This document shows, in pieces, positions 5,073 to 25,205 of a stretch of DNA of 30,247 nucleotides. Made by a program: the position numbers and the translations under genes. Where the stretch lies: contig CBDESZ010000014.1 in assembly GCA_965242725.1 (NCBI GenBank), positions 1 through 30,247 on the forward strand, written 5' to 3'. The notes under the pieces are model-generated. The model was given only the letters and a program-made list of their open reading frames with translations. It searched no databases and was not told where the DNA came from. Source of the DNA: Alkalispirochaeta sp. GTDB taxonomy: Bacteria > Spirochaetota > Spirochaetia > DSM-27196 > Alkalispirochaetaceae. The stretch's first letter is position 1; every line of letters starts with the position of its first letter.

Positions 5073-5909
5073 GTGCTGGAGTTCAGCAATCTATCAAAGA
5101 CTTATGACGACGGGACACAAGCCCTCAAAGAGGTCAGTTTTTCCGTAGAAAAGGGCGAGTTTCTCGTCGTGATCGGTCTTTCCGGATCGGGAAAGTCCAC
5201 GCTCTTGCGTTGCACCAACCGTCTTATTGAACCAACTTCAGGATCGATCATGTGGGACGGTCTCGACATCACCGGCGCGGATAATACCCAGTTGCGCACG
5301 ATCCGCCGCAGGATCGGTATGATTTTTCAGCACTTCAACCTTGTGAAACGGTTGAGCGTGATGAACAACGTCCTCTCAGGGCGGCTTGGCTATCTCGATA
5401 CGTGGAAGAGCGTCTTTTATCGCTTCGACGGCGACGACAAGAAAAACGCTTTTCGCTCCCTTGAACGGGTAGGGTTGACGGAGCAGGCGTACAAAAGGGC
5501 GAGCGAGCTTTCCGGCGGACAGCAGCAGCGGGTGGGTATTGCCCGGGCGCTCATGCAGGAGCCGGAAATCATCCTCGCCGATGAGCCCGTTGCCAGTCTC
5601 GATCCCGTCCTGGCTCATACGATTCTCGGGTATCTTGAGCGTCTCAACAAGGAAGACGGTATTACCGTCATTTGCAGTCTCCACTACCTGGACCTGGTTC
5701 AGCGCTATGCCACAAAGGTGATCGGACTGCGGGACGGACGGGTCGTCTATCGGGGTACCGGCGCAGACATCAGGCGCATGACCGATGAAGAGTTCAAGGA
5801 GATATACGGAGAGGAAGCGGAACGCGTCGGCGCCGCGCCGGCCTCCGCGGCGACCCTGGGCGGAATACCCGAGAGCGTCGTCCCGACTGATGAGGAAGGG
5901 AGTCGATAA
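5073..5909 (+). CDS. phnC: Phosphonate-type ABC transporter ATP-binding protein
   Basis: Walker A GLSGSGKST, 'IGMIFQHFNLVKRLSVMNNVLSGRLG', signature LSGGQQQRV, Walker B ILADEPVASLDP. SD AGGAGG before GTG. Confidence 0.93.
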   Translation: MLEFSNLSKTYDDGTQALKEVSFSVEKGEFLVVIGLSGSGKSTLLRCTNRLIEPTSGSIMWDGLDITGADNTQLRTIRRRIGMIFQHFNLVKRLSVMNNVLSGRLGYLDTWKSVFYRFDGDDKKNAFRSLERVGLTEQAYKRASELSGGQQQRVGIARALMQEPEIILADEPVASLDPVLAHTILGYLERLNKEDGITVICSLHYLDLVQRYATKVIGLRDGRVVYRGTGADIRRMTDEEFKEIYGEEAERVGAAPASAATLGGIPESVVPTDEEGSR

Positions 5910-14150: not shown

Positions 14151-16694
14151 TTATGTGATGAATTTTTCGTGCTGGTTACGGGGAGACCCCAGGAGTTTCA
14201 GAAAGTCGTCACGACCCATGGGAACACCGAAAAGATATCCCTGTCCCTCGAGACAGCCTTTTTTTACCAGAAAATGACGCTGTCCCTCGGTTTCAATGCC
14301 CTCGGCAACGGTCTTCAGCTGCAATGCCCTTCCCATGGCGATAATCGTCGTGATGATCGCCTGGTCACTCGTGTCCGTACCGAGATCCTTTACGAAGGAG
14401 CGGTCGATTTTCAGCACATCCACGGGAAGTCGCTTGAGATAATTCAACGAGGAGTATCCGGTGCCGAAGTCGTCTATCGCAAGGGACAGCCCGCGGTCCT
14501 TAATACCTTTGATGATGGGGAGCGTCTTTTCCACATCATCCATGACGACGCTCTCGGTTAGTTCAATCTCCAGGGATCCTGAGGGGCAGCAATCTCCGAC
14601 GATCGCGGTGAGGCGATCGAGAAATGCGGGGTCGTGTATTTCCCGCATCGACGCGTTGAAGGAAATGGTCATACCCGGCATGTTTGATCCGAATACCGCG
14701 GAAAGGTCGTGGCGAATCTTTGACAACAGCGCTTCTCCAAGAGGCACGATCATGTTTGTCTCTTCCGCGAGAGGAATGAACTCGTCCGGTGAGACGATGG
14801 TGCCGTCGTCCCGAATCCATCGCGCCAGTGCTTCCGCTCCGAGAATCTCCCCGCTGGCAAGATCGATTCGGGGTTGGTAGAAGGGCATAAATCTTCCCCG
14901 TACCAGATCCTGTCGCATCTGTGCTTCCAGAGAAATCTTGCGCCTCAGTGCCGCATCCAGCGCGGCGGTAAACATACCGACTCGCCCCCGGTCGGGCAGC
15001 TGGGGGCGTGACTTGGCCTGATACATCGCGATTTCCGCGCTGTTCAGGAGCGTTTCCGCGTCGTTGCCGTCTTCAGGATAGAGCGCGACGCCCATGCTAA
15101 CGGTGATCTGAACGGAGGTGCCGTCAACCGAAATGGGAGTACCGCACAGGCTGGAAATCTTTTCCGTTATGTGAGCGTATTCCCACTCGTCGGCGACTTC
15201 TTCTACGAGCAGCCCGAATTCATCACCGCCGATACGTGCGACGGTGATGCCGGACCCGACCGTTTGTTTCAGCAGCAGGGCAAAAACCTCGAGAAATGAA
15301 TCACCGAACGTATGACCCATGGACTCGTTGACCTTTCGGAAATCGTCAATGTCCGCGATAACCACCGCCGTTGTCCGGACCTGTTTCCGGGAGGTCCTGA
15401 TGGACGACGCAATACGCTCGAGAAACGAGGCGCGGTTGGGCAACTTGGTCAATCCGTCGAAATTGGCGTGAAACGCCGCTTCTGCCTCCTTGGCGCGAAG
15501 TTCCGTAAGGTCGTGAAAAATGGCGACGTAGTTGGAGATTTCACCCGACTCGGAGTAGATAGCCCGTATTTCCAGCCATTCCGGGTATATTTCGCCGGTT
15601 TTGCGGCGATTCCAGATCTCTCCGTGCCATTCACCGACGGTGAGAAGGCGCTGCCACATTTCCGCATAGAACGATTCGTCGTGACGGCCCGATTTGAGAA
15701 TACTCGTCTTTTGTCCCACCGCTTCGCGGGGTTGGTATCCCGTGATCCGTGAAAAGGACGCGTTGATCTGTTGGACGACACCGTCGGCATCCGTGACGGT
15801 CACGCCGTTCAGGGATGTCTCAACGACGGTATTCATGAGCTGCAGCTGCTGACTCACATCGGTCAGCGTCGTTGTACGTTCCCGTAATAACGTGTCCAGT
15901 TCCCGGTTGACCCGCTGCAGCTCCTTTTCAGTCGAGATTCTGGTGGTGATATCCCGGGCGATCCCGATGACGATGTCCATGTCCGTCCACCGATAGAGCG
16001 AAACCTGCATCTCAACGGGAACGACGCTGCCGTCGGCGCGTCGATGGGTCGTACGAAAGGGTTTTCGGGACGAGTCTGTCTTCATTGCGAGTATGAGTCG
16101 TCGAATCTCGCCTGCAGGTACCTGAACGTCGATATCCATTGGTCCCATGGTAAGCAGTTGTTCCCGGCTGTAGCCGAGCATCCGGAGGGCGGCGGAGTTC
16201 ACGTCCAGAAAGGTCATGGACTCCGAATCGACGAGATACACAGCGTCTTCGGTGGCCTCCAAAGCCGCCTGGAGACGACGAACGTGTCCTGCCCGTTCGG
16301 TCCGCCCGTCGTTCAACAGGGTGACAACGACCCGCTCCGAGGGACCCGCCTGACTCGTCGGTGCGATATGAACCCTTACCGGGGTATACTGCGTATCGTC
16401 GGATGTTCGATACGAGGTTTTCACGATTCTCGTGGTACCGGACACCACATCCTGCAGCGACTGGGAGAGGCGTTGGAAATCGTTTGGATCGGTAAAGGAG
16501 AAGACGTTTCGTCCGACTATCGATAGGGCGGGCTCCCCGAGAACGGTTACCGCCGCCGGATTGAGATCATGGATCGTACCGTCGGGGTCCGCGATGAGAA
16601 CGCCGAACGGCAGTGAGTGTATCAGAGGGGTACACCTGTCGTCGCTCACCTGAAGCGAAGAAGATACCCCGGCGAATAACCGATGAGAAGACAT
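14151..16694 (-). CDS. PAS-PAS-PAS-GGDEF-EAL diguanylate cyclase/phosphodiesterase
   Basis: 847 aa with three PAS/PAC-like repeats, 'DGLTKLPNR', intact 'RIGGDEF', 'EALARW', 'EIELTE', 'IDDFGTGYSSL' and 'AEGIET'. Confidence 0.93.
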   Translation of the reverse strand: MSSHRLFAGVSSSLQVSDDRCTPLIHSLPFGVLIADPDGTIHDLNPAAVTVLGEPALSIVGRNVFSFTDPNDFQRLSQSLQDVVSGTTRIVKTSYRTSDDTQYTPVRVHIAPTSQAGPSERVVVTLLNDGRTERAGHVRRLQAALEATEDAVYLVDSESMTFLDVNSAALRMLGYSREQLLTMGPMDIDVQVPAGEIRRLILAMKTDSSRKPFRTTHRRADGSVVPVEMQVSLYRWTDMDIVIGIARDITTRISTEKELQRVNRELDTLLRERTTTLTDVSQQLQLMNTVVETSLNGVTVTDADGVVQQINASFSRITGYQPREAVGQKTSILKSGRHDESFYAEMWQRLLTVGEWHGEIWNRRKTGEIYPEWLEIRAIYSESGEISNYVAIFHDLTELRAKEAEAAFHANFDGLTKLPNRASFLERIASSIRTSRKQVRTTAVVIADIDDFRKVNESMGHTFGDSFLEVFALLLKQTVGSGITVARIGGDEFGLLVEEVADEWEYAHITEKISSLCGTPISVDGTSVQITVSMGVALYPEDGNDAETLLNSAEIAMYQAKSRPQLPDRGRVGMFTAALDAALRRKISLEAQMRQDLVRGRFMPFYQPRIDLASGEILGAEALARWIRDDGTIVSPDEFIPLAEETNMIVPLGEALLSKIRHDLSAVFGSNMPGMTISFNASMREIHDPAFLDRLTAIVGDCCPSGSLEIELTESVVMDDVEKTLPIIKGIKDRGLSLAIDDFGTGYSSLNYLKRLPVDVLKIDRSFVKDLGTDTSDQAIITTIIAMGRALQLKTVAEGIETEGQRHFLVKKGCLEGQGYLFGVPMGRDDFLKLLGSPRNQHEKFIT

Positions 16695-16815: not shown

Positions 16816-17523
16816 CTACTGGAGACGGAAGGTGACGCTGATGAGGGTCGTATCGTCGACGGTAGTGTTGTTTCGCCGGGCGGGAAGAAAGGCAGTGTCC
16901 AGAACGGCGTCAACCGCAGCGGAATCGAGGCGCCTGTTGCCGGAACTTTTCGCAATTTCCACATTCAGTACGTTTCCTCTGGACGAAATATGAACCTCCA
17001 GGAGGACATCTCCCTCGATCCCGCGCCGCCGCGCCGAGTAGGGGTAGGCCGGCGCGATCGGTGACGCCGGCCGGGGAGGTTCCATAGTGCTGTCGCCGTT
17101 CCGTTCATTGGTGAGGTTCCGTTCGGGACGAGGTGATTCCGGGACGGCCGATGCATCGGGGGATCGGCGCTCCGCGGGCGATTCCGACGGCGATTCTTGG
17201 GCGGCAGGTTCCGCGGCAGGTCGCGACACCTCCGGTATCGCGGCGGGCGGCGGGGACGGGGGCGGATTTGTGACCGGTTGAGGCTCCGGCGCCGGCGACG
17301 CTACCGCAGGCGGGTCCCGCCGCGGCGGCGTCGCCACCGGTGTGGCGGGTGCGACGAGACGTACCTCCATTGAGGCGGGAGCGGACCGCACCGAGGAGCC
17401 GGTCTCCGATACGACCGAACGGTACACCCCGACACCCGCCCAAATTCCGGAGTGCAGGAAGAGCGAGGCGGCGAGGGCGAGAGCCCCTCGCCGCCGGAAC
17501 GACGTCAGTCGCCGCCGTGCCAA
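16816..17523 (-). CDS. tonB: Energy transducer TonB
   Basis: N-terminal TM with S-x3-H ('ASLFLHS'), a Pro-rich linker and a TonB C-domain ('PAYPYSARRRGIEGDVLLEVHI...SSGNRRLDSAAV...FLPA'). Starts 4 nt downstream of the receptor gene. Confidence 0.92.
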   Translation of the reverse strand: MARRRLTSFRRRGALALAASLFLHSGIWAGVGVYRSVVSETGSSVRSAPASMEVRLVAPATPVATPPRRDPPAVASPAPEPQPVTNPPPSPPPAAIPEVSRPAAEPAAQESPSESPAERRSPDASAVPESPRPERNLTNERNGDSTMEPPRPASPIAPAYPYSARRRGIEGDVLLEVHISSRGNVLNVEIAKSSGNRRLDSAAVDAVLDTAFLPARRNNTTVDDTTLISVTFRLQ

Positions 17524-17527
17524 CGGT

Positions 17528-19579
17528 TCAGTACCGGTAGGACGCCGCCACGCTGAATGAGCGCCCCGGCGCGGGGTAATAGGCGGTGGTGCCCGAAAAG
17601 GATGAGTAGAACTGAAGCGGCGCGTACCGCACGTCGAAGGCGTTCTTCAGCTCCGCCGTGACCGAGAGGTCCCCCGGTACCGCCGGCCGGAAACGTACAA
17701 AGAGATCGGTCACGGCCCAGGGGGAGATGCGATCCGTTTCATTTGCGCTGTCGCCGCCCTGATAGGCGGCGCTGCGAAAGGTCAGGGCGGGACCAAACTC
17801 GAGTCCCAGTCCCGTTCCGGGCCGGAGGGCCAGTTCCCCGTCCACGGAATGGTTGGGAACGAGGGGGACCTCCCTGCCCCTGTTGTCGCCCCCGGCAAAG
17901 GTGGCCAGGACGTAGCTGTAGCCGCCGGTGAGGCGGAAGTGCTCCGTCGGTTCGGCGGTGAGCCTGAAGTCGGCGCCGACCCGGTTGGTGGAACCGATGT
18001 TTTTGTTTGCCATCGCAGAGGCGTCATAGGCGATTTCATCCTCCATGGCGAGCCACCATACGCTTGCCTCAACCTGCGCTTTTCGCCCGGGATAGATGCC
18101 GACGCCGGCCTCGGCGGTGACGCCTCGCTCCGGGTCAAGATCATCGAGGAATTGATCGCCGAATCCCTGCACCGACGCCTGCTCGTCCAGAAGGGGATAG
18201 CGGAAGAGGGTGCCGCCGGAGAGGTAGATCTTGGCGATTTCCACGGGGCGGAACACCGCTTCCGCGTCAAAGACAAACGCCTCATGCGTCTTCCGGTCAT
18301 CAATGCCGCTCGACTCCTTTTCCGCGGTGAAGGTGCTGCGGTCGTAGCGCACCGTTCCGGCGAGGTCGAGCTCTTCCGTCACATAGACGGTCGTTGAAAG
18401 GGCCGTTCCGATTGTGTGGTGGCCGAGGATGGCTGTGTAGTCCCGAGTCTCCCGATCCGCATCGGTATACGAGCGAATCCTCTGTCGCGCCGTTGACCAG
18501 TCCACACCGATCCGGGAGCGCAGGGGGAGGGCCCCGGCATCCCAGTCCACCGTTACGGCCGGTGAAGCCGAGAATGTGTGGAGGTCGCGGTCGATGTAGC
18601 TGGAAAAGCTTGCGGTGTCCGTCTCGACGAGGCGGCCCGCGTAATTAACGGGCACGTTCACCCTGATGAGCGGTCCCGACATCCACTCCACGGCGACACC
18701 GAGATCGATCTGCTCTTCCCGCGCCTCGTCGCCGGGGTTGCCCGCCTGCGTCGGGTCGTCTTTATACGCCGCCTCGGTGAGGCTTCCCGGCATTTCATAG
18801 GAGATGTCGCCGTACCGGCCGGAAAGGCGCAGCGTGAGAGGAGCCGGCACGTCGAAATCGCTGCGAAGGGAGATGTTCCGGGCCTCGTAGGCCGAACGCT
18901 CCCGGTATCCGTCGGTGGTGTAGTGCTCCGCCGACGCGCGCAGGCGTGCCCGTTCTTCCGCAACGTCGACGGTAATGCGACTGCCCGCCTGATTGAATGA
19001 GCCGAGGCTTCCCGATGCGGTGACGGAAAAGGACGTCTCCGCCTCTTTGGTGATGATGTTGATGACGCCGCCCAGGGCGTTGTTGCCGTAGATCGCGCTT
19101 GCGCCGCCGTGGACGACCTCGATGCGGTCGATTGTGTCCATGGGGATGCCGAGCCAGTTGATGCCGGACAGGTCGGGGCTGTTGAGGCGGCGTCCGTCAA
19201 CAAGGACGAGGACGCGGCTCCCGGAACCCTCGCCGAAACCGCGCATGTCGACGGTAGCCTGGGCATCGTTGGAGTAGGAGGTGAAGGAGATGCCGCTTTC
19301 TTGCTCAAGAATCTCCACGACGCTTGATGCGCCGCTGCGGCGGATCTCCTCCGCGGTTATAACTGAGACACCGGCTCCGGTGGCGACGATGTCGGTGAGG
19401 ATACGGTCGGCGGTGACGACGACGGAGAGATCCGGTGTTGGATCGTCGGTTTGCCGGTTCTGGGCGGGCAACTGGGCGGGGGAAGCAAGTACCGCCGTCC
19501 AGAGCAGGGTGAGCGCGGCTATTGGGTACCACGCGAAATGTGACGAAGTTCGATTTACAAAAAATTTACGAAAAATCAA
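17528..19579 (-). CDS. btuB: TonB-dependent outer-membrane receptor, probably for cobalamin (BtuB-like)
   Basis: TonB-box-like 'DLSVVVTADR', plug motifs ('VSVITAEEI', 'MRGFG', 'VLVDGRR', 'IDRIEVVHGGASAIYGNNALGGVINIITK'), and C-terminal 'KNAFD...PGRSFSVAASYRY'. Start re-assigned to TTG 19579 (GAGG upstream, signal peptide follows). Substrate inferred from the riboswitches; the symbol is tentative. Confidence 0.88.
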   Translation of the reverse strand: MIFRKFFVNRTSSHFAWYPIAALTLLWTAVLASPAQLPAQNRQTDDPTPDLSVVVTADRILTDIVATGAGVSVITAEEIRRSGASSVVEILEQESGISFTSYSNDAQATVDMRGFGEGSGSRVLVLVDGRRLNSPDLSGINWLGIPMDTIDRIEVVHGGASAIYGNNALGGVINIITKEAETSFSVTASGSLGSFNQAGSRITVDVAEERARLRASAEHYTTDGYRERSAYEARNISLRSDFDVPAPLTLRLSGRYGDISYEMPGSLTEAAYKDDPTQAGNPGDEAREEQIDLGVAVEWMSGPLIRVNVPVNYAGRLVETDTASFSSYIDRDLHTFSASPAVTVDWDAGALPLRSRIGVDWSTARQRIRSYTDADRETRDYTAILGHHTIGTALSTTVYVTEELDLAGTVRYDRSTFTAEKESSGIDDRKTHEAFVFDAEAVFRPVEIAKIYLSGGTLFRYPLLDEQASVQGFGDQFLDDLDPERGVTAEAGVGIYPGRKAQVEASVWWLAMEDEIAYDASAMANKNIGSTNRVGADFRLTAEPTEHFRLTGGYSYVLATFAGGDNRGREVPLVPNHSVDGELALRPGTGLGLEFGPALTFRSAAYQGGDSANETDRISPWAVTDLFVRFRPAVPGDLSVTAELKNAFDVRYAPLQFYSSFSGTTAYYPAPGRSFSVAASYRY

Positions 19580-19589
19580 TTGTGGATTT

Positions 19590-19785
19590 CCTCTTGTGTT
19601 CGTGAGAGTACGACCGTCATGCGCGGTGCGCCCGGTCGTCTTGCGGGAGAATCGTCTTCTGGCTGACGGATACTCGACGCTGCGCCTTCCCGCCGCGGGC
19701 GGCAGTGGCATGTGGGCATCTCTCATCCGATTACAGCGGCACGTCCGCACCCGATTTGCACGGGTTTCCGTTATTCTTCCGCTCC
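19590..19785 (-). promoter_or_regulatory. Second (variant) cobalamin riboswitch, adjacent to the receptor RBS
   Basis: Minus strand: GCGGAAGAATAACGGAA-ACCCG TGCAAAT CGGGT-GCGG ACGTG CCGC-TGTAA...GCCACTG...CGGGAAGGC...AGCCAGAAGACGATTCTCCCGC. A downstream hairpin CTCT-CACGAACACA-AGAG overlaps the SD. Confidence 0.8.
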
Positions 19786-19829
19786 ATCTTGTCTGTATGT
19801 GTGTTCGTTCTCGAAAAGGAATCGTGGCG

Positions 19830-19958
19830 TTACCGTCCCGGGGCGACCTCCCTCCCTTCGGATGCGGCGCGGTTGGAAGCGGCGCGAATGCGCGGCACGA
19901 TACCTGTGAGTTGTGCGAAAGGGTATGGATGGTGAACGATAGCTATCGTCCGGGGCAC
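19830..19958 (-). CDS. Putative 42-aa upstream ORF/leader peptide between the two riboswitches
   Basis: GGAGG lies 5 nt before GTG 19958. Reads MPRTIAIVHHPYPFAQLTGIVPRIRAASNRAASEGREVAPGR*. No recognisable family. Confidence 0.3.
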   Translation of the reverse strand: MPRTIAIVHHPYPFAQLTGIVPRIRAASNRAASEGREVAPGR

Positions 19959-20125
19959 GCCTTCCTCCGAGGCCGTACATGGTTTGCAGACGGGCAGGTC
20001 TCCTGACTTACGGTTCTACGTCTGCAGGCGCCTTCCCGTGCGGTGGCGTATGCCTGCATCCTCACCGAATACAGTAGCGGGGACTGTCCCGGACTCTCAC
20101 CGGGTTCCCTTCACCTCGTCCGGAT
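19959..20125 (-). promoter_or_regulatory. Cobalamin (AdoCbl) riboswitch, first copy
   Basis: Minus strand: AGGTGAAGGGAA-CCCGG TGAGAGT CCGGG-ACAGTCCCCGCTACTGTA...GCCACCG..CGGGAAGGC...AAGTCAGGAGACCTGCC (B12 box), then the hairpin GCCT-CGGAGGA-AGGC. Confidence 0.93.
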
Positions 20126-20140
20126 GTTACGGATGTATTG

Positions 20141-20169
20141 ATGGTAGCAGGGGGAGATCGGTCCGTCAA
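20141..20169 (-). promoter_or_regulatory. sigma70 promoter for the riboswitch-receptor-tonB transcript
   Basis: TTGACG(20169-64)-17 nt-TACCAT(20146-41) with an extended -10 TG. Predicted +1 is just 5' of riboswitch 1. Confidence 0.75.
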
Positions 20170-20170
20170 C

Positions 20171-20226
20171 GCGGCGGTGGGAGTCGGCGGTGGGTGTCGG
20201 CTGTTGGCGTCGGCTGATGGCGTCGG
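20171..20226. repeat. Degenerate 13-bp tandem repeat (about 4.3 copies)
   Basis: GCGGCGGTGGGAG / TCGGCGGTGGGTG / TCGGCTGTTGGCG / TCGGCTGATGGCG / TCGG. Confidence 0.65.
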
Positions 20227-20268
20227 GGTCAGGTACCGGCGCGCGCCCTCTGCCGACACAGCCATGTG

Positions 20269-20297
20269 TTGGCGCGGTCGGCCATACCGTTCATAAT
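20269..20297 (+). promoter_or_regulatory. Putative sigma70 promoter for the btuFCD-like operon
   Basis: TTGGCG(20269-74)-17 nt-CATAAT(20292-97), then GGAGGGAG SD and ATG at 20314. Confidence 0.55.
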
Positions 20298-20313
20298 CGC
20301 GGAGGGAGATTGT

Positions 20314-21453
20314 ATGACGTTCCGGAAATGCACATACGCCGTTCTCATCGTCGCGATGGCTCTCGGACCCGTCGCAGCAGCGGTGAGTCAGGAGTTCTCG
20401 ACGTCGTTATCCATCGACGATGAATGTGAACCGCTGACGGTGGTGACCGTTACAGATGCCTGGCCGGGGGCGGAACCGTTGCGGTACGCCTTTGTTTCGG
20501 CGGGTTCGGCGGTGGGCCGGGCGGCGGCTCCTTCCCCCGCGCTGGCGGATGCATTTGATGAAGTCATTTCCGTTCCCCTGGAACGGGTTATCTCCCTCTC
20601 GTCAACGGCGATACCCCATATCCGTGATCTTGGTATGGCGGACCGACTCGTCGGTGTGGACCGCGGGGACCATATCTATGATGAGGATATTCACCGTGCG
20701 GTGGAATCGGGGCGGATCGTCGAGGTTGGTTCCGGGGGGACGCTGAATCTGGAACGAGTTGTCGCCGCCCGGCCCGATGTCGTTCTCACCTCGGCGATGG
20801 GGAGTGACGATCCGACGCTGCGGCGGCTGAAGGCCGCCGGTATTCCCGTCATCGTCCTTGCGGACTGGCGGGAGCAGTCTCCCCTGGGTCGCGCGGAGTG
20901 GATCCGTTTTTTTGGGGTGCTCTTTGACCGGACGGCACAGGGGGACGCCCTGTTTGCGGAACGGGTGACGTCGTACCGCCGTATTGCCGGGGTTGCTCGC
21001 GACCTCCCGCCGGACGAGCGGCCGACGATTGTTGCCAACGCGCCGTGGCAGGGTACGTGGCCCGTACCGGGGGGCGACAGCTATGTGGCCACCCTCTTTC
21101 ATGACGCCGGCGGACGCTATCTCTGGGCGGAAACATCGGGAACGGGGTCCCGGTTTCTCGATCTCGAGTCGGTTCTTCAACGGGCGGTACACGCCGAGTT
21201 CTGGTTGCACCTCAATACGGGGTGGGAGTCCCGGGCCGATGCCCGCAATCTCGACGAGCGGCTCACCCTGTTCCAGGCGTACCGGGAGGGACGCATGTAC
21301 CACTACTCCCGAAGGGTACGCCCCTGGGGAGCCAACGATTTCTGGGAGTCCGGCGCGGCGCGGCCAGATCTCGTCCTGGCAGATCTTCTTCACATCCTGC
21401 ATCCCCGGCTGCTGCCGGAACATGAGCTCATCTTCTATCGGAGTCTCCCGTGA
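20314..21453 (+). CDS. btuF: ABC transporter substrate-binding protein, cobalamin/iron-siderophore family (BtuF-like)
   Basis: Signal peptide from ATG 20314. Motifs 'PLERVISLSST', 'LVGVD', 'NLERVVAARPDVVL', 'EQSPLGRAEWIRFFG', 'DFWESGAARPDLVLADL'. B12 specificity inferred from context. Confidence 0.85.
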   Translation: MTFRKCTYAVLIVAMALGPVAAAVSQEFSTSLSIDDECEPLTVVTVTDAWPGAEPLRYAFVSAGSAVGRAAAPSPALADAFDEVISVPLERVISLSSTAIPHIRDLGMADRLVGVDRGDHIYDEDIHRAVESGRIVEVGSGGTLNLERVVAARPDVVLTSAMGSDDPTLRRLKAAGIPVIVLADWREQSPLGRAEWIRFFGVLFDRTAQGDALFAERVTSYRRIAGVARDLPPDERPTIVANAPWQGTWPVPGGDSYVATLFHDAGGRYLWAETSGTGSRFLDLESVLQRAVHAEFWLHLNTGWESRADARNLDERLTLFQAYREGRMYHYSRRVRPWGANDFWESGAARPDLVLADLLHILHPRLLPEHELIFYRSLP

Positions 21454-21524
21454 GGCGCGCCGATGGATAGGTACATGGGAGCGGGAGTGAAGAAAACCGC
21501 GACGTCGGAGAATGAGGCGGCCCC

Positions 21525-22553
21525 GTGAACGTACGAGTTCTCCTCCTCATACCCCTTCTCGTGATGCTTGCCGTTCTTTCCCTTTCGGTCGGGTCCGTTA
21601 CCATACCTGCAGGCGAGCTCTGGGATGCATGGTTTCCGGCGCGAGGACCGCTGCGGAGCCCGCCGCGGCGGATGCGTCGGTTGCACGCATCATTCTGCAC
21701 ACAATCAGGGTGCCCCGGACGGTTACCGCCGCCGCGGCGGGAGCCGCCCTCAGCCTGGCGGGGCTCCTCATGCAGACCGTATTCAGGAACGCCCTTGCCG
21801 GACCTGGCGTGCTGGGAGTCACCTCCGGCGCGGGGCTCGGCGTGGCGGTCGTCATCCTTGGCGGCGCGACGTTGCAGTCGATCGTGCCCGTCGGTGCGGC
21901 GGCGGTACTCGGAGCGTCGACGGTGCTGGGGCTGGCCCTCCTGGTCAACCGGGTGGTCGGGCAGCCGGTCATCCTCCTGGTGCTGGGACTGCTCTTCGGG
22001 TACGCCGCCAGCGCCGGCACCACCCTCCTCATGGCGTCGAGCCCGGCGGAGGGTCTTGAGCGCTATGTGGTGTGGAGTTTCGGTTCATTTGCCTGCCTCC
22101 GGGGCCGGGGCCCCCGGCGCTGGCGGCGGTCACCCTTGCGGCGGCGCCCTCCTCACCTGGTCGGGCAGACGGCTGGACGCCCTCCTTCTGGGCCGCCTCT
22201 ATGCGGAAAGCGCCGGTCTGAACGCCCGGGCGGTACAGGGCGCACTGATTCTGCTGGCAGGCACCCTTACCGGACTCGTGACGGCAATGACCGGTCCGAT
22301 CACCTTCATCGGGGTGGCGGTACCCCATCTGGCGCGGGGGTGGGTGCGCAGTTCCCGGCATCGCGTGCTCGTTCCCGCCGTCCTGCTTCTGGGGGCGTCC
22401 CTGGGTATAGCCGCCGATATCGTCTCCCGTATGCCCGGTACCGACCGGGTGCTCCCCCTCAATTCGGTGATGGCACTGGTGGGTGTGCCTGTTGTACTCA
22501 CCGTGCTCCTCCGTCCCGGCCGGCGGGTCACCGAGGAGGGCATCGGGCTGTGA
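21525..22553 (+). CDS. btuC: FecCD/BtuC-family ABC permease (compensating apparent frameshifts near 21640 and 22100-22140)
   Basis: N- and C-termini are in the 21525 frame ('LSVGSVTIP', 'LDALLLG', 'GPITFIGVAVPHLAR', 'LPLNSVMALVGVP'). The middle is in the 21512 frame ('IRVPRT', 'GLLMQTVFRNALAGPGVLGVTSGA', 'WSFGSF'). Confidence 0.85.
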   Translation: MNVRVLLLIPLLVMLAVLSLSVGSVTIPAGELWDAWFPARGPLRSPPRRMRRLHASFCTQSGCPGRLPPPRREPPSAWRGSSCRPYSGTPLPDLACWESPPARGSAWRSSSLAARRCSRSCPSVRRRYSERRRCWGWPSWSTGWSGSRSSSWCWDCSSGTPPAPAPPSSWRRARRRVLSAMWCGVSVHLPASGAGAPGAGGGHPCGGALLTWSGRRLDALLLGRLYAESAGLNARAVQGALILLAGTLTGLVTAMTGPITFIGVAVPHLARGWVRSSRHRVLVPAVLLLGASLGIAADIVSRMPGTDRVLPLNSVMALVGVPVVLTVLLRPGRRVTEEGIGL

Positions 22554-23328
22554 GAGAACTGATCGTTGCACAGTCATTGTGTATCGGCTATCGCAGGGGG
22601 CCGACCGTCCTGGCCGACATCGCGACGCAGATCGTTGCGGGAGAGGTGCTGTGCATCATCGGCCCCAACGGCGGCGGCAAGACGACGCTCCTGCGCACCC
22701 TTTCGGGACTGCACCCGCCGCGGGCGGGGTCGGTCCTGCTCAACGGACGTCCCCTCTACGGTCGGGGTGCTCTGGAGCGGCGGCAGCGGGCACGCAGGGT
22801 GGCCGTCGTCCTGACCGACCACGTGGCGCCGGCGTATCTGCGGGTCCGTGAACTGGTATCACTCGGACGTTTACCCTACAGACCTTCCGCGAAGGCCGAC
22901 AGGAATGCTGTTGAACGGGCCATGGAAGAGAGCGGCATCGCCCACCTGGCGAATCGTCCGGTGGGAGAACTCAGCGACGGTGAACGGCAGCGGGTGATGG
23001 TGGCACGTGGCCTGGCACAGGAACCGGAGATTCTGTTGCTCGATGAGCCTGCAGTGCATCTCGACCCGCCCCATCAGAGCGAACTCTTTCTCCTCTTGCG
23101 GGATCTCGTCGCCGCCGGGCCGTTGCAAAGCGTTGCCATCGCAACGCATCAGCTCCATCTCGCCCTGCACTACAGTGACCGTCTTCTTCTGGTCGCCGGG
23201 GGGAGCGTCACCGCCGGAACCGCGGCGGAATTTCTCTCGGATGATCGGCTTGAGCGGGCATTACCGAGGGAACGGGACATCACCGTCTCATACTCGATGC
23301 CCATCGCGGGTGGTTTGTTCCTTCGTGA
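22550..23328 (+). CDS. btuD: ABC transporter ATP-binding protein (BtuD/FecE-like; apparent frameshift near 23260)
   Basis: GTG at 22550 (GTGA overlap with the permease stop, SD GAGGAGG). Walker A GPNGGGKTT, LSDGERQR, LLLDEP, H-loop ATHQ. The likely true C-terminus ...TEGTGHHRLILDAHRGWFVPS* ends at TGA 23328 in another frame. Confidence 0.85.
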
Positions 23329-23329
23329 G

Positions 23330-23358
23330 CTGACAGAACCCTCTCCCTCTGGTAGATT
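23330..23358 (+). promoter_or_regulatory. sigma70-like promoter abutting the next ATG (leaderless)
   Basis: CTGACA(23330-35)-17 nt-TAGATT(23353-58) with an extended -10 TG, 7 nt before ATG 23366. Confidence 0.55.
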
Positions 23359-23365
23359 GCTTCCT

Positions 23366-25205
23366 ATGCGCATTCGCAACGTTCGGCGTTATCTGATTCT
23401 TCCCCTCCTGTACGTTGGTGTGATCTTCGGGCTCCTCTTTCTTCAGTTTTCCGGACGGTTGACGGTACGAAAAGAAATCCGGAACCTTCATTTTACCGGT
23501 ACCCTGGTGGCAGGAGCGGATGAAACGAGCAGCAACATCACCGCCGCGCGTCTCGAGTTTGAGGGCATCCGCTTTGACTTTTCCGAGGATATCCCTCTCG
23601 TGATCGCCTCGGGCGGCGAGCCTGATATGCGTCTCCATCCCGGCGCTATGAAATCGAGGGCGATGAATTGCGAATGACCATGTCCGACGGGAGCGCCCTG
23701 CGCTTCAACGTCTCCGAGTCGGAACTGTCGGAACTGCATATCATCCCCGTCCCTACGGAAAACTGGCCCGCCCGGGGACAACTGATCATACCCTACCGCC
23801 TCACATCCGAAGCCGAACTCCGGGCGCCGGACACCTCCATGCCGGAGCAGCGGGAAATCATGGTGGGAGAACGGCGGTTCTTCCTCTCTTCGCCGCCGCG
23901 GACCGTCTTTGACGATACCCAGCAGAGCCTCATTATCCCTCTCGACGGGGAAGCCAGATGGTACGATACGCCGAGGTGTCACCTGAGGCTGAGGATATCA
24001 TTGAAGCAGCCTTCAGTGACGGACAGCGGACGATCGGAGTGGTGCGGTATGAACAGACAATTCGGGACTATCTCGACGTCGGGTATACCGGCTGGTCGGG
24101 AGAACGGTACAACGGCGGATCCGGAACGTGGTCGATGCGCGACGGCGCGGCGCGATTTTCCGAGGAGATCCTCACCGCCTATCTCGCGGAGGCGTGGCGG
24201 CGCAATGAGTATGCAACGGCTTTCAACCAGATGCGCCGCGCGGCGGACCTGCATCCCCAGGCGGTCGGGTTTCTTTCCGCTCCCTTCCTCGGTGACCTGA
24301 GAAGCGTTTCCGCGACGTTTGTGGAAGAGGACCGGGAGCGAGCGCAGAGCCTCGAGGCGCGCATCGCCGCCGGTGATCCCACGATTTTTCGCGATGAAGA
24401 TGTCATTATTCACGCCTCCCTCCACGGAAATGAACAGCTCTATCGGCTGCTCCTTGAATACATCGAGATTGTGGATTATCGCACCGTGGGGATTCCCACG
24501 GCGGTGGGAATGCTCGCCTCGGCGGTGGATACCGATTTTCCCGACCCTGCGGCGGAGGAGGCAACACGTCGCTTTCTGGGGATTATCGAGGAACGCCTCT
24601 TTCCCGCGGTACGGCGATTTGACGACTTCTTTTATCTCGAAACCGCCCAGGGTGAGATCGACGTATACCGTTCCATACGGGCGGGACAGCTTATCGAACG
24701 GGTTGGCCGGGACGAGGACAACCAGCTCTATATAACGGTGGGACGAAACCTCGTCATGTCGGGACTTCAGCTTGCGGACCCCCGGGGATTTCTCCCGGAG
24801 TTCCTCTATTTCAACGAGACGGGAATTCAGCGCCGTGAGGGGAGTTTCGGCGTGGAGCGGCTCTACGCCAGGTTTACGGAAAACCCCTGGTATCCCCGAG
24901 CCATTTCACTCTATGACGATCTCGGGGCGGGCAGTTTCATTTGGACGATCGCCGATTTCACAACCATCGATATCGGTGAGGAGACGTTTCGATTCAGACT
25001 GCAGTACCCCGCCAATCAGACCCACTACATCATCATGCAGGGTATTCCTCCCTTCAACTCGATGCAGCTCTTCGGGTTGCAGTGGCGCAACGACATCAGT
25101 TTTGAATCGTATATAAAGGGACGTCACTACGAGGAATCGACGCGAACGCTGATGATCAAATACACAGACAATTCAACGGAAGAGGATATCATTCTCAATT
25201 ACTGA
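23366..25205 (+). CDS. Large (~610 aa) N-terminally anchored hypothetical protein (apparent frameshifts near 23640 and 23950)
   Basis: MRIRNVRRYLILPLLYVGVIFGLLFLQFS forms a TM anchor. Three consecutive ORF segments (tail of 21512..23677, 23668..24300, 23958..25205) read through with single-base corrections. Function not recognised. Confidence 0.7.

What the first reader, a model, noticed from the sequence alone, without database searches (positions are those of the whole stretch)
19579..20169. Tandem cobalamin riboswitches in one ~550-nt leader of the TonB-dependent receptor/tonB operon
Seen: one clear promoter (TTGACG-17-TACCAT), a canonical cobalamin aptamer (20125-19987), a ~200-nt spacer, and then a second complete aptamer (19782-19643) abutting the receptor RBS. 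The second one is hidden inside the over-extended 5' end of the computed 740-aa ORF, so gene callers would mask it. Each aptamer has its own P13-like hairpin whose loop is complementary to its own L5: UCCCCG with CGGAGGA for copy 1, ACGUG with CACG for copy 2. The two kissing loops therefore look orthogonal. Established: AdoCbl riboswitches act through an L5-L13 kissing loop that occludes the RBS, and tandem riboswitches can sharpen the response or integrate ligands. Inference: a two-input or steeper B12 switch, possibly sensing different cobamides, in a spirochaete.
Basis: partly seen in the sequence, partly recalled or inferred. Interest (0 to 1): 0.85.

Follow-up and report, generated by a model that had tools for sequence, protein, structure and literature searches.

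The report
Two different B12 riboswitches in tandem
The leader of a vitamin-B12 outer-membrane importer gene in a soda-lake-type spirochaete carries two complete but differently built B12-sensing RNA switches in a row; tandem B12 switches are already known, but here each copy has its own private docking sequence and the pair recurs in relatives.

Summary
Confirmed. Rfam's Cobalamin model (RF00174) hits twice on the minus strand: 20133-19977 (89.6 bits) and 19769-19654 (69.9 bits). Both lie in one ~555-nt leader, between the only promoter-like site and the TonB-dependent receptor/tonB genes. They are the genome's only two hits.

The copies are two diverged types. Type A matches the full model and pairs L5 UCCCCG with L13 CGGAGGA. 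Type B closes with one covarying helix and pairs L5 ACGUG with L13 CACG. The order A then B recurs, complete, in 8 of 99 genomes of the order. Orthologous receptors carry A only, B only or both. Both switches are far better conserved than the spacer.

B's docking hairpin holds the receptor's ribosome-binding site, so B is a translational OFF switch. A has no terminator. Its docking loop is a Shine-Dalgarno sequence followed by GUG; in a relative the same unit directly starts btuF. How A reaches the receptor is inferred: a riboswitch-gated leader ORF with Rho polarity is my best guess.

Tandem AdoCbl doublets are published (26 counted in 2022), and this scan noted two on other DNA. This is a new variant of a known kind. 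Sensing of different cobamides is untested.

The parts
20141..20169 (-). Promoter-like site TTGACG-17-TACCAT with TG before the -10. The -10 ends 7 nt before aptamer A.
   Evidence: the only minus-strand site in 19400-20400. By the same rule a site lies upstream of type A in 5 of 12 related leaders. A TTGAC box is visible upstream of type A in the 10 leaders printed.
19977..20133 (-). Aptamer A: full-length cobalamin aptamer with outer P1/P2 helices, a compact P6 extension and the B12 box.
   Evidence: RF00174, 89.6 bits, model 1-189. Aptamer plus P13 is 74-89% identical to other tandem leaders, against 44-58% for the spacer.
20078..20083 (-). L5 loop of aptamer A (UCCCCG).
   Evidence: alignment and sequence. 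The surrounding 13-nt motif is identical in all 15 distinct type-A sequences.
19959..19973 (-). P13/L13 hairpin of switch A: stem GCCU/AGGC around loop CGGAGGA. The loop is complementary to L5(A) with one bulged A, and it is also a Shine-Dalgarno sequence.
   Evidence: The 15-nt motif is identical in 15 of 15 type-A sequences, 100-104 nt after L5. In locus L037 the same unit sits directly before the ATG of a btuF homologue.
19830..19958 (-). Candidate leader ORF: GUG immediately after P13(A), 42 codons, then UAA. The peptide is not conserved.
   Evidence: The codon at this position is AUG in 1, GUG in 5, UUG in 7 and GCG in 2 of the 15 type-A sequences. ORF lengths run 19-42 codons and frames differ between relatives. 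Translation is inferred, not shown.
19875..19934 (-). C-rich, G-poor stretch inside the candidate leader ORF (26 C, 10 G). A possible Rho loading site.
   Evidence: C/G is 2.6, above the 99th percentile (2.33) of 60-nt windows on this strand of the window. A rho gene is present in the genome. The function is inferred.
19645..19780 (-). Aptamer B: cobalamin aptamer that lacks the model's outer P1/P2 and is closed by one helix (19773-19780 with 19645-19652). Its P6 extension is longer than A's.
   Evidence: RF00174, 69.9 bits, model 47-167. Closing helix across 14 type-B sequences: 7 of 10 pairs change on both sides and 84% of cells pair. For the whole tested structure, pairing falls from 92% to 42-52% when partners are slid.
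19740..19744 (-). L5 loop of aptamer B (ACGUG).
19591..19608 (-). P13/L13 hairpin of switch B: stem CUCU/AGAG around a loop that starts with CACG, complementary to L5(B). The 3' arm is part of the receptor's SD (AAGAGGAAA).
   Evidence: CACG sits at this place in 15 of 15 sequences with an RCGUG L5. The four core kissing pairs are invariant in 14 of 14.
17528..19579 (-). BtuB-like TonB-dependent receptor with Plug and beta-barrel domains. Likely start TTG 19579.
   Evidence: Pfam PF07715, PF00593. (start candidates). All 20 related receptor loci scanned carry an RF00174 hit upstream.
16816..17523 (-). tonB gene directly downstream of the receptor gene.
   Evidence: PF03544, E 1e-17.

Best explanation
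One roughly 555-nt leader, transcribed from the promoter-like site at 20169-20141, carries two complete and independently acting cobalamin OFF switches in series before a btuB-like receptor/tonB operon. The genome looks like a B12 importer. Switch B works in the classical translational way. Ligand binding lets L5 (ACGUG) dock on the CACG loop of P13, which stabilises a hairpin whose 3' arm is the receptor's Shine-Dalgarno sequence. Switch A is a self-contained translational unit of a different subtype. Its L5 (UCCCCG) docks on the L13 loop CGGAGGA, which is itself a Shine-Dalgarno sequence placed 5 nt before a GUG. My best guess for A's output is that it gates ribosome loading on a short, non-conserved leader ORF. 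Without ribosomes, the C-rich spacer would be exposed and Rho would terminate before or within the receptor gene. Repression at two levels would multiply, giving a tighter and steeper shut-off of B12 uptake. The different docking sequences would stop the two switches from mis-pairing on one RNA. Shown here: both aptamers, their platforms, their conservation and their covariation. Inferred: a single transcript, ligand response, translation of the leader ORF, a role for Rho, and the shape of the dose response.
For: Both aptamers score far above the gathering threshold. They are the genome's only two RF00174 hits. The downstream genes are a Plug/beta-barrel receptor and tonB, and 20 of 20 related receptor loci have an upstream cobalamin aptamer. 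MetH is present; CobS and CbiC were not found in a 92%-complete genome. The complete A-then-B tandem occurs in 8 of 99 genomes of the order, spread over three families, and one more is cut at a contig end. A and B (aptamer plus P13) are 74-89% and 70-76% identical to other tandem leaders, against 44-58% for the spacer. B's closing helix covaries. The L5/L13 codes are kept in 15 of 15 type-A sequences and 15 of 15 type-B sequences, and a sister subtype has the compensating CGCG/CGCG code in 10 of 10. In L037 the same A unit sits directly at the ATG of a btuF homologue, so A's L13 is a working ribosome-binding site in at least one context. An NUG codon follows P13(A) in 13 of 15 sequences. The 2 exceptions are short leaders where A is 56-57 nt from the receptor start. 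The spacer has a 60-nt stretch with C/G of 2.6, above the 99th percentile, and rho is present. No promoter-like site lies in the spacer of 0 of 7 tandem leaders, and no terminator-like site was found. There is a precedent for a B12 riboswitch whose L13 hairpin masks the initiation region of a leader ORF that the downstream gene depends on, with Rho discussed: M. tuberculosis ppe2 (PMC11260477, abstract and passages read).
Against: There are no RNA data. The runs that hold the locus are low-depth DNA contigs, so the single transcript, the transcription start and any premature termination are untested. The leader ORF's peptide, length (19-42 codons) and stop position are not conserved, and window and G007 differ by a frame-shifting indel right after the GUG. 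The GUG/UUG retention amounts to only two or three independent lineages. The same GGAGGAAGG segment is complementary to a downstream pyrimidine tract. That pairing is strong (-15.1 kcal/mol) in the two short single-A leaders and weaker (-8.4 to -11.7) in the long ones. It suggests an RNA relay in which the SD might never be free. C/G enrichment in relatives' spacers is weaker (1.6-2.1). Ligand binding was not tested for either aptamer.
Confidence: 0.55

Rival explanations
1. Switch A acts purely through RNA structure, not through a leader ORF. When unliganded, its GGAGGAAGG segment pairs with a downstream pyrimidine tract and opens a conserved spacer hairpin with an SD-like 3' arm. When liganded, that hairpin closes. 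In tandem leaders the output could be to permit or block folding of aptamer B, so that A licenses B and both ligand-binding events are needed.
For: In the single-A leaders L041 and L046 the segment has a 9-10-bp complement (-15.1 kcal/mol) overlapping an anti-SD hairpin that holds the real receptor SD. Long leaders keep a hairpin with a GGAGG-type 3' arm. In 6 of 7 tandem leaders the best complement of A's L13 segment is the 3' strand of B's closing helix.
Against: In the window itself that complement is not among the top four sites. Partition-function folding with A's platform free or withheld gave no consistent change in B's closing helix or in SD accessibility across 7 leaders. The complementarities are generic 5-7-bp SD/anti-SD pairings. 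No start codon consistently follows the spacer hairpin's SD-like arm.
Confidence: 0.2
2. The two aptamers sense different corrinoid forms, differing in upper ligand or in base-on versus base-off lower-ligand state. The leader would then be a two-input NOR gate rather than a sharper one-input switch.
For: A and B differ in the peripheral elements that the literature links to selectivity. A has the outer P1/P2 and a compact P6 extension. B lacks P2 and has a longer extension (PMC7367189 passages). Cobalamin riboswitches fall into semiselective and promiscuous groups, and the kissing loop may contribute to that (PMC9600662 passages). The pairing is always A with B, never A-A or B-B, in the 8 complete tandem leaders and the one cut at a contig end. 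The organism appears to rely on imported cobamides.
Against: Both aptamers match RF00174 best and both have a P6 extension, the mark of AdoCbl-binding class I. No sequence rule for selectivity could be applied here. Orthologous receptors manage with A alone or B alone, which argues against an obligatory two-ligand logic.
Confidence: 0.17
3. Switch A no longer regulates the receptor. It may be a leftover of a rearrangement, for example the riboswitch of the divergent btuF operon, or the two switches may lie on separate transcripts.
For: A closely similar type-A unit directly heads a btuF homologue in L037, while the window's own btuF-like gene has no riboswitch. A lies about 380 nt from the receptor start and has no terminator.
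Against: The A-then-B order before the receptor is conserved in three families, and tandem leaders lie on both sides of the deepest split of the receptor clade. A's aptamer and platform are under clear purifying selection. No inverted repeats flank A. No internal promoter-like site was found. A-only leaders exist 180-210 nt upstream of the same receptor in L038 and L039.
Confidence: 0.08

Closest known systems
Tandem AdoCbl riboswitch doublets (called pseudo-cooperative, with multiple expression platforms). Sherlock et al. 2022, PMC9481103, passages read; that paper credits the first report to its reference 25, Sudarsan et al. 2006, which I did not read.
   Same: Two complete aptamers of the same class sit in one leader, each with its own expression platform. 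They are expected to give a steeper, tighter OFF response.
   Different: I could not see which loci make up the 26 doublets (supplement unreadable). The examples described in the text have intrinsic terminators. Here neither switch has a terminator. The two copies are different structural subtypes with non-cross-complementary L5/L13 sequences. The first platform gates an SD plus GUG rather than the regulated gene.
Translational cobalamin riboswitches with an L5-L13 kissing loop (E. coli btuB, env8). Known to me through the reference list and passages of PMC9600662 and the search listing of PMC11162775.
   Same: Switch B sits before a btuB-type receptor. Its P13 hairpin contains the RBS, and the P13 loop is complementary to L5.
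   Different: L5/L13 use CGUG/CACG rather than the C-rich/G-rich consensus. B lacks the outer P1/P2 of the Rfam model. It is preceded by a second switch.
M. tuberculosis ppe2 B12 riboswitch controlling a translated leader ORF (PMC11260477, abstract and passages read).
   Same: The L13 hairpin masks the SD and start of a short upstream ORF rather than of the regulated gene. Downstream expression depends on translation of that ORF, and Rho-dependent termination is discussed.
   Different: That is a single riboswitch of a different subclass, and its leader ORF overlaps the gene start (AUGA). Here translation of the leader ORF is only inferred, it ends 48 nt before aptamer B, and a second riboswitch follows.
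Glycine-type tandem aptamers sharing one expression platform (as described in PMC9481103).
   Same: Two aptamers for one ligand class lie in one leader.
   Different: Here the aptamers are about 195 nt apart, each has its own P13 platform, and nothing indicates inter-aptamer docking.

Membership tests
Cobalamin riboswitch (Rfam RF00174, clan CL00101) | Covariance-model score at or above the curated gathering score (31.5 bits) | tested here: met
   Aptamer A 89.6 bits, aptamer B 69.9 bits.
Cobalamin riboswitch (Rfam RF00174, clan CL00101) | Conserved core: B12 box, GCCAC box, GGGAAGGC, and the P4 and P5 hairpins | tested here: met
   The alignments to the model show these blocks in both copies. 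P4 covaries in 3 of 5 pairs among type-B sequences.
Cobalamin riboswitch (Rfam RF00174, clan CL00101) | Expression platform with a P13 hairpin whose loop can pair with L5 | tested here: met
   Sequence complementarity is present in both copies. It is conserved in 15 of 15 type-A sequences and 15 of 15 type-B sequences, with the compensating CGCG/CGCG code in 10 of 10 of the sister subtype. Docking itself was not tested.
Cobalamin riboswitch (Rfam RF00174, clan CL00101) | Binds a corrinoid and changes gene expression | not testable with these tools
   Needs in-line probing, ITC and reporter assays.
Class II cobalamin riboswitch (lacks the P6 extension; Cbl-IIa binds MeCbl/OHCbl) | Absence of the P6 peripheral extension | tested here: not met
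   Both copies align through model positions about 80-150, the P6 extension. The class definition is taken from PMC7367189 passages.
Tandem riboswitches with multiple expression platforms (pseudo-cooperative) | Two complete aptamers of one class, on the same strand, in one leader before one gene | tested here: met
   The same arrangement occurs complete in 8 of 99 genomes of the order.
Tandem riboswitches with multiple expression platforms (pseudo-cooperative) | Each aptamer has its own expression platform | tested here: met
   P13(A) is at 19959-19973 and P13(B) at 19591-19608, with non-cross-complementary loops. What A's platform controls remains uncertain.
Tandem riboswitches with multiple expression platforms (pseudo-cooperative) | Both lie on one transcript, with no promoter between them | tested here: inconclusive
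   No sigma-70-like site lies in the spacer of the window or of the 6 other tandem leaders. This is only a consensus scan, and no RNA data exist.
Cooperative dual aptamers with a single platform (glycine type) | Adjacent aptamers sharing one expression platform | tested here: not met
   A spacer of about 195 nt separates them, and there are two separate P13 hairpins.

The most novel reading that the evidence does not exclude
The pair is a two-channel corrinoid sensor built from two structural subtypes, one with P2 and a compact P6 extension and one without P2 and with a longer extension. Their kissing-loop sequences have been kept mutually orthogonal so that both can work on one RNA. A and B would have different corrinoid selectivities, and the leader would integrate which forms of B12 are in the cell, not only how much. 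Orthogonal L5/L13 codes would be a general design rule for tandem kissing-loop riboswitches. At least three codes occur in this order: CCCCG/CGGAGG, CGUG/CACG and CGCG/CGCG.
Probability: 0.17. Interest if true: 0.75.

Novelty: new variant of a known kind. Interest (0 to 1): 0.5.

Why it matters
Tandem riboswitches are the main natural examples of RNA-only devices with a sharpened or logic-gated response, and tandem B12 switches have been counted but barely dissected. This locus offers a natural comparative series for one orthologous receptor gene: A only, B only, and A plus B. The two switches have distinct, testable docking codes, and neither has a terminator. That makes three questions directly testable with reporter swaps. 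What does the second switch add? Do kissing-loop sequences have to be orthogonal in tandem? How does an upstream translational riboswitch reach a gene hundreds of bases away (leader-ORF/Rho polarity or RNA relay)? On the practical side, gene callers extend the receptor ORF over aptamer B, so such second aptamers are easily masked.

Tried and rejected
- Whole-leader MFE folding was uninformative: z-score 0.39, and 60 of 100 shuffles fold as well.
- I folded 7 tandem leaders with A's platform free or withheld, to test whether A's state changes B's closing helix or SD exposure. The results were inconsistent: the window and G007 moved in opposite directions and the other five showed no helix at all.
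- I searched for RNA evidence. The runs holding the stretch are low-depth contigs of unknown or DNA kind. There is no information on transcript ends.
- I tested the idea that A was brought in by a recent inversion from the btuF side. No flanking inverted repeats were found, and the arrangement is conserved.
- I looked for a decayed aptamer B in the A-only leader of L038. There was no RF00174 match even at E up to 10.
- The 69-aa ORF 19771-19980 in the spacer has no Pfam family, and its ATG is absent from the g15/g16 leaders.
- The supplement of PMC9481103, which lists the 26 AdoCbl doublets, was not readable. I therefore cannot say whether spirochaete or heterotypic doublets are among them.
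- A joint alignment of type-B and type-C sequences did not place the L13 loops in common columns. The U-A to C-G switch is therefore documented by the script tally, not by the pair-counting tool.
- The gene behind the type-C switches could not be identified: tblastn with the window's BtuF-like protein found nothing, and Pfam found nothing in a 104-aa fragment.
- Literature searches for 'tandem AdoCbl', 'tandem cobalamin', 'two cobalamin riboswitches' and 'tandem B12' returned 3 papers, none on tandem arrangements like this one.
- The scan's own index has no look-alike of this stretch.
Full report
**Observation**

A scan of the whole window with Rfam 15 gives exactly two matches above gathering. 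Both are to the Cobalamin family RF00174 and both lie on the minus strand. The first is 20133-19977 (89.6 bits, E 3.7e-21, model positions 1-189). The second is 19769-19654 (69.9 bits, E 1.6e-15, model positions 47-167). A more permissive scan of 19400-20400 adds nothing. The whole assembly, 4.34 Mb in 34 contigs, has no other RF00174 match.

The only minus-strand promoter-like site in 19400-20400 is TTGACG-17-TACCAT at 20169-20141. No terminator-like site was found. The 740-aa ORF 17528-19750 runs over the second aptamer. The plausible start is TTG 19579, which is preceded by AAGAGGAAA and followed by a signal-peptide-like N-terminus. Orthologues align from about residue 35 onward.

**Context**

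On the minus strand the leader is followed by a Plug/beta-barrel TonB-dependent receptor and tonB, then a PAS-GGDEF-EAL gene. A divergent plus-strand gene for a Peripla_BP_2 binding protein starts at about 20311, followed by FecCD and ABC-ATPase genes.

Relatives of the receptor found in named records are titled Alkalispirochaeta alkalica DSM 8900 and Spirochaetaceae MAGs. All 20 receptor loci that I scanned carry a cobalamin aptamer upstream on the same strand, which marks the receptor as BtuB-like.

The genome encodes MetH and Rho. CobS and CbiC were not found in an assembly estimated 92% complete. The organism looks like a B12 importer whose only riboswitch-controlled locus is this one.

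**Two aptamer types**

An alignment of 18 aptamers from the window and relatives splits them cleanly into two types.

- **Type A (the first copy).** It matches the whole Rfam model and has a compact P6 extension, L5 UCCCCG and the B12 box AGUCAGGAGACCUGCC.
- **Type B (the second copy).** It matches only model positions 47-167. It has a longer P6 extension, L5 ACGUG or GCGUG, and the B12 box AGCCRGAAGAC.

Type B is closed by a single helix, 19773-19780 with 19645-19652 in the window. On 14 type-B sequences this helix has changes on both sides in 7 of 10 pairs, and 84% of cells pair. For the whole tested structure 92% of cells pair, against 42-52% when the 3' partners are slid by 1-3 columns. 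The second copy is therefore a complete aptamer of a different architecture, not a fragment.

**Expression platforms**

*Switch B.* Downstream of type B lies the hairpin CUCU[CACG...]AGAG (19608-19591). Its loop begins with the complement of the L5 core. Its 3' arm is part of the receptor's Shine-Dalgarno sequence, 8 nt before TTG 19579.

I examined 28 aptamers of this architecture from the order.

- 15 have an RCGUG L5, and all 15 have CACG at the start of the P13 loop.
- 10 have ACGCG in L5 (I call these type C; they sit before another gene). All 10 have CGCG 26-29 nt after the B12 box. In 8 of them it is clearly the loop of a hairpin whose 3' arm carries AGGAG.
- 2 have the common CCCG-type L5.
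- 1 could not be parsed by my pattern and was dropped.

The U-A to C-G exchange between types B and C is a compensatory change across the proposed kissing interaction. Within type B the four core pairs never vary.

*Switch A.* Downstream of type A lies GCCU[CGGAGGA]AGGC (19973-19959). All 15 distinct type-A sequences share the same L5 motif and this 15-nt hairpin at a fixed distance of 100-104 nt. L13(A) is complementary to L5(A) with one bulged A. It has no complementarity to L5(B), and L13(B) has none to L5(A).

**What switch A controls**

L13(A) is itself GGAGGA, a Shine-Dalgarno sequence. In locus L037 the same unit is followed 5 nt later by the ATG of a btuF homologue with a signal peptide. 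The unit is therefore a working translational riboswitch in at least one context.

Before the receptor genes, the codon at that position is GUG in 5 and UUG in 7 sequences. It is GCG in the 2 short leaders where A lies 56-57 nt from the receptor start. In those two leaders the GGAGGAAGG segment has a 9-10-bp complement (-15.1 kcal/mol). That complement overlaps an anti-SD hairpin holding the real SD, which is a classical relay.

In the long leaders the NUG opens an ORF of 19-42 codons. Its peptide, length and stop position are not conserved. The window and G007 even differ by a frame-shifting indel just after the GUG. In the window the ORF runs from 19958 to 19830. It contains a 60-nt stretch with 26 C and 10 G, a C/G ratio of 2.6, above the 99th percentile (2.33) for this strand of the window. 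Relatives show 1.6-2.1.

A-only leaders (L038, L039) place the same unit 180-210 nt before the receptor start, with no trace of a second aptamer. Type A must therefore be able to act at a distance, if it acts at all.

The published M. tuberculosis ppe2 B12 riboswitch offers a precedent. Its L13 hairpin masks the initiation region of a leader ORF on which the gene depends, and Rho is discussed (PMC11260477, abstract and passages). My preferred model is accordingly a riboswitch-gated leader ORF with Rho polarity. I hold it at roughly 35-40% on its own. An RNA-relay alternative and a 'licensing of B' variant remain open. Folding calculations did not discriminate between them.

**Conservation and history**

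Among 99 genomes of the order, 73 have at least one RF00174 match. Eight carry a same-strand pair 100-210 nt apart: G000, G007, G047, G069, G051, G044, G037 and G084. These fall in three families. A ninth, G085, is cut at a contig end exactly at B's closing helix. Every pair is A then B.

Where enough sequence was available, the receptor orthologue follows: five loci by tblastn and one more. For G069 only eight codons are on the contig.

Between the window and other tandem leaders, identities are as follows:

| Segment | Identity |
|---|---|
| A (aptamer plus P13) | 74-89% |
| B (aptamer plus P13) | 70-76% |
| Spacer | 44-58% |

A maximum-likelihood tree of 20 receptors gives a 100/100 clade of the 14 receptors with A, B or A+B leaders. 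Tandem leaders lie on both sides of its deepest split, so the label needs 2 changes. A-only and B-only leaders are interspersed. One origin of the tandem followed by repeated loss of either switch is the simplest reading, but the tree does not prove it. None of the 7 tandem leaders scanned has a promoter-like site in the spacer or in B.

**Comparison with what is known**

Tandem riboswitches for one ligand with separate platforms are an established class. A 2022 survey lists AdoCbl among them, credits the first report to a 2006 paper, and counts 26 AdoCbl doublets (PMC9481103, passages read). Its supplement was not readable here.

This scan has also noted tandem cobalamin switches before TonB receptors in two other genomes (unchecked notes). 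The kind is therefore known.

In the papers I could search I did not find three features described:

- a conserved heterotypic pair of two structural subtypes;
- non-cross-complementary kissing sequences in tandem partners;
- a first switch that lacks a terminator and gates an upstream SD/NUG instead.

The peripheral elements in which A and B differ (P2 and the P6 extension) are the ones the literature links to corrinoid selectivity (PMC7367189, PMC9600662, passages). Sensing of different corrinoids is therefore possible, but nothing here tests it.

**Verdict**

This is a new variant of a known kind and is moderately interesting, mainly as a clean natural system for testing what a second riboswitch adds and whether kissing codes must be orthogonal.

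**Data caveat**

Three DNA runs that hold this stretch carry four extra single bases relative to the window: after 19644, 21632, 22091 and 22142. The one after 19644 lengthens the C run just 3' of aptamer B and does not change any conclusion here.

Noticed in passing
window 21512-23677 (plus strand): The 721-aa 'fused FecCD-ABC' ORF looks like an artefact. FecCD profile positions 30-171 are in one frame (ORF 21512...) and positions 190-311 in another (ORF 21525-22553). Three DNA runs holding this stretch have extra bases after 21632, 22091 and 22142. Either btuC is frameshifted in this assembly or the assembly has homopolymer errors.
   Followed up: partly
window 19644-19647: The same DNA runs have one more base here, CCCC instead of CCC on the minus strand, directly 3' of aptamer B's closing helix.
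   Followed up: no
window 20266-20311; locus L037 880-1230: The window's divergent btuF-like operon has only a short leader with a promoter-like site (20269-20297) and no riboswitch. In a same-genus genome a type-A riboswitch sits directly on the btuF start, and a type-C aptamer points the other way.
   Followed up: partly
loci L130-L135, L138, L139 (other genomes of the order): A third kissing code occurs. Aptamers built like type B but with L5 ACGCG pair with a CGCG loop in a hairpin carrying AGGAG, before a gene for a secreted protein. I could not identify that gene: Pfam found nothing in a 104-aa fragment, and tblastn with the window's BtuF-like protein found nothing.
   Followed up: partly
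locus L038 about 5576-5720 (minus strand): In this A-only leader an ATG-started ORF after the spacer hairpin ends in TGA overlapping the receptor's ATG (ATGA). In L039 the same ATG is in frame with the receptor. This recalls the ppe2 leader-ORF coupling described for M. tuberculosis. I read it by eye only.
   Followed up: no
loci L041 3792-3870 and L046 2360-2436: Short single-A leaders show a complete relay. The L13 segment has a 9-10-bp complement overlapping an anti-SD hairpin that holds the receptor's SD and is followed by a run of 5-6 U. The hairpin could act on both translation and transcription.
   Followed up: partly
tandem leaders L032, L036, L033, L035, L034, L050: In 6 of 7 tandem leaders the best downstream complement of A's L13 segment is the 3' strand of aptamer B's closing helix (-9.5 to -11.7 kcal/mol). 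This is not so in the window. It may be only a by-product of both being SD-like/anti-SD-like.
   Followed up: partly
window 14151-16694 (minus strand): A PAS-PAS-GGDEF-EAL protein gene lies about 120 nt downstream of tonB on the same strand. Whether it belongs to the riboswitch-controlled unit is unknown.
   Followed up: no
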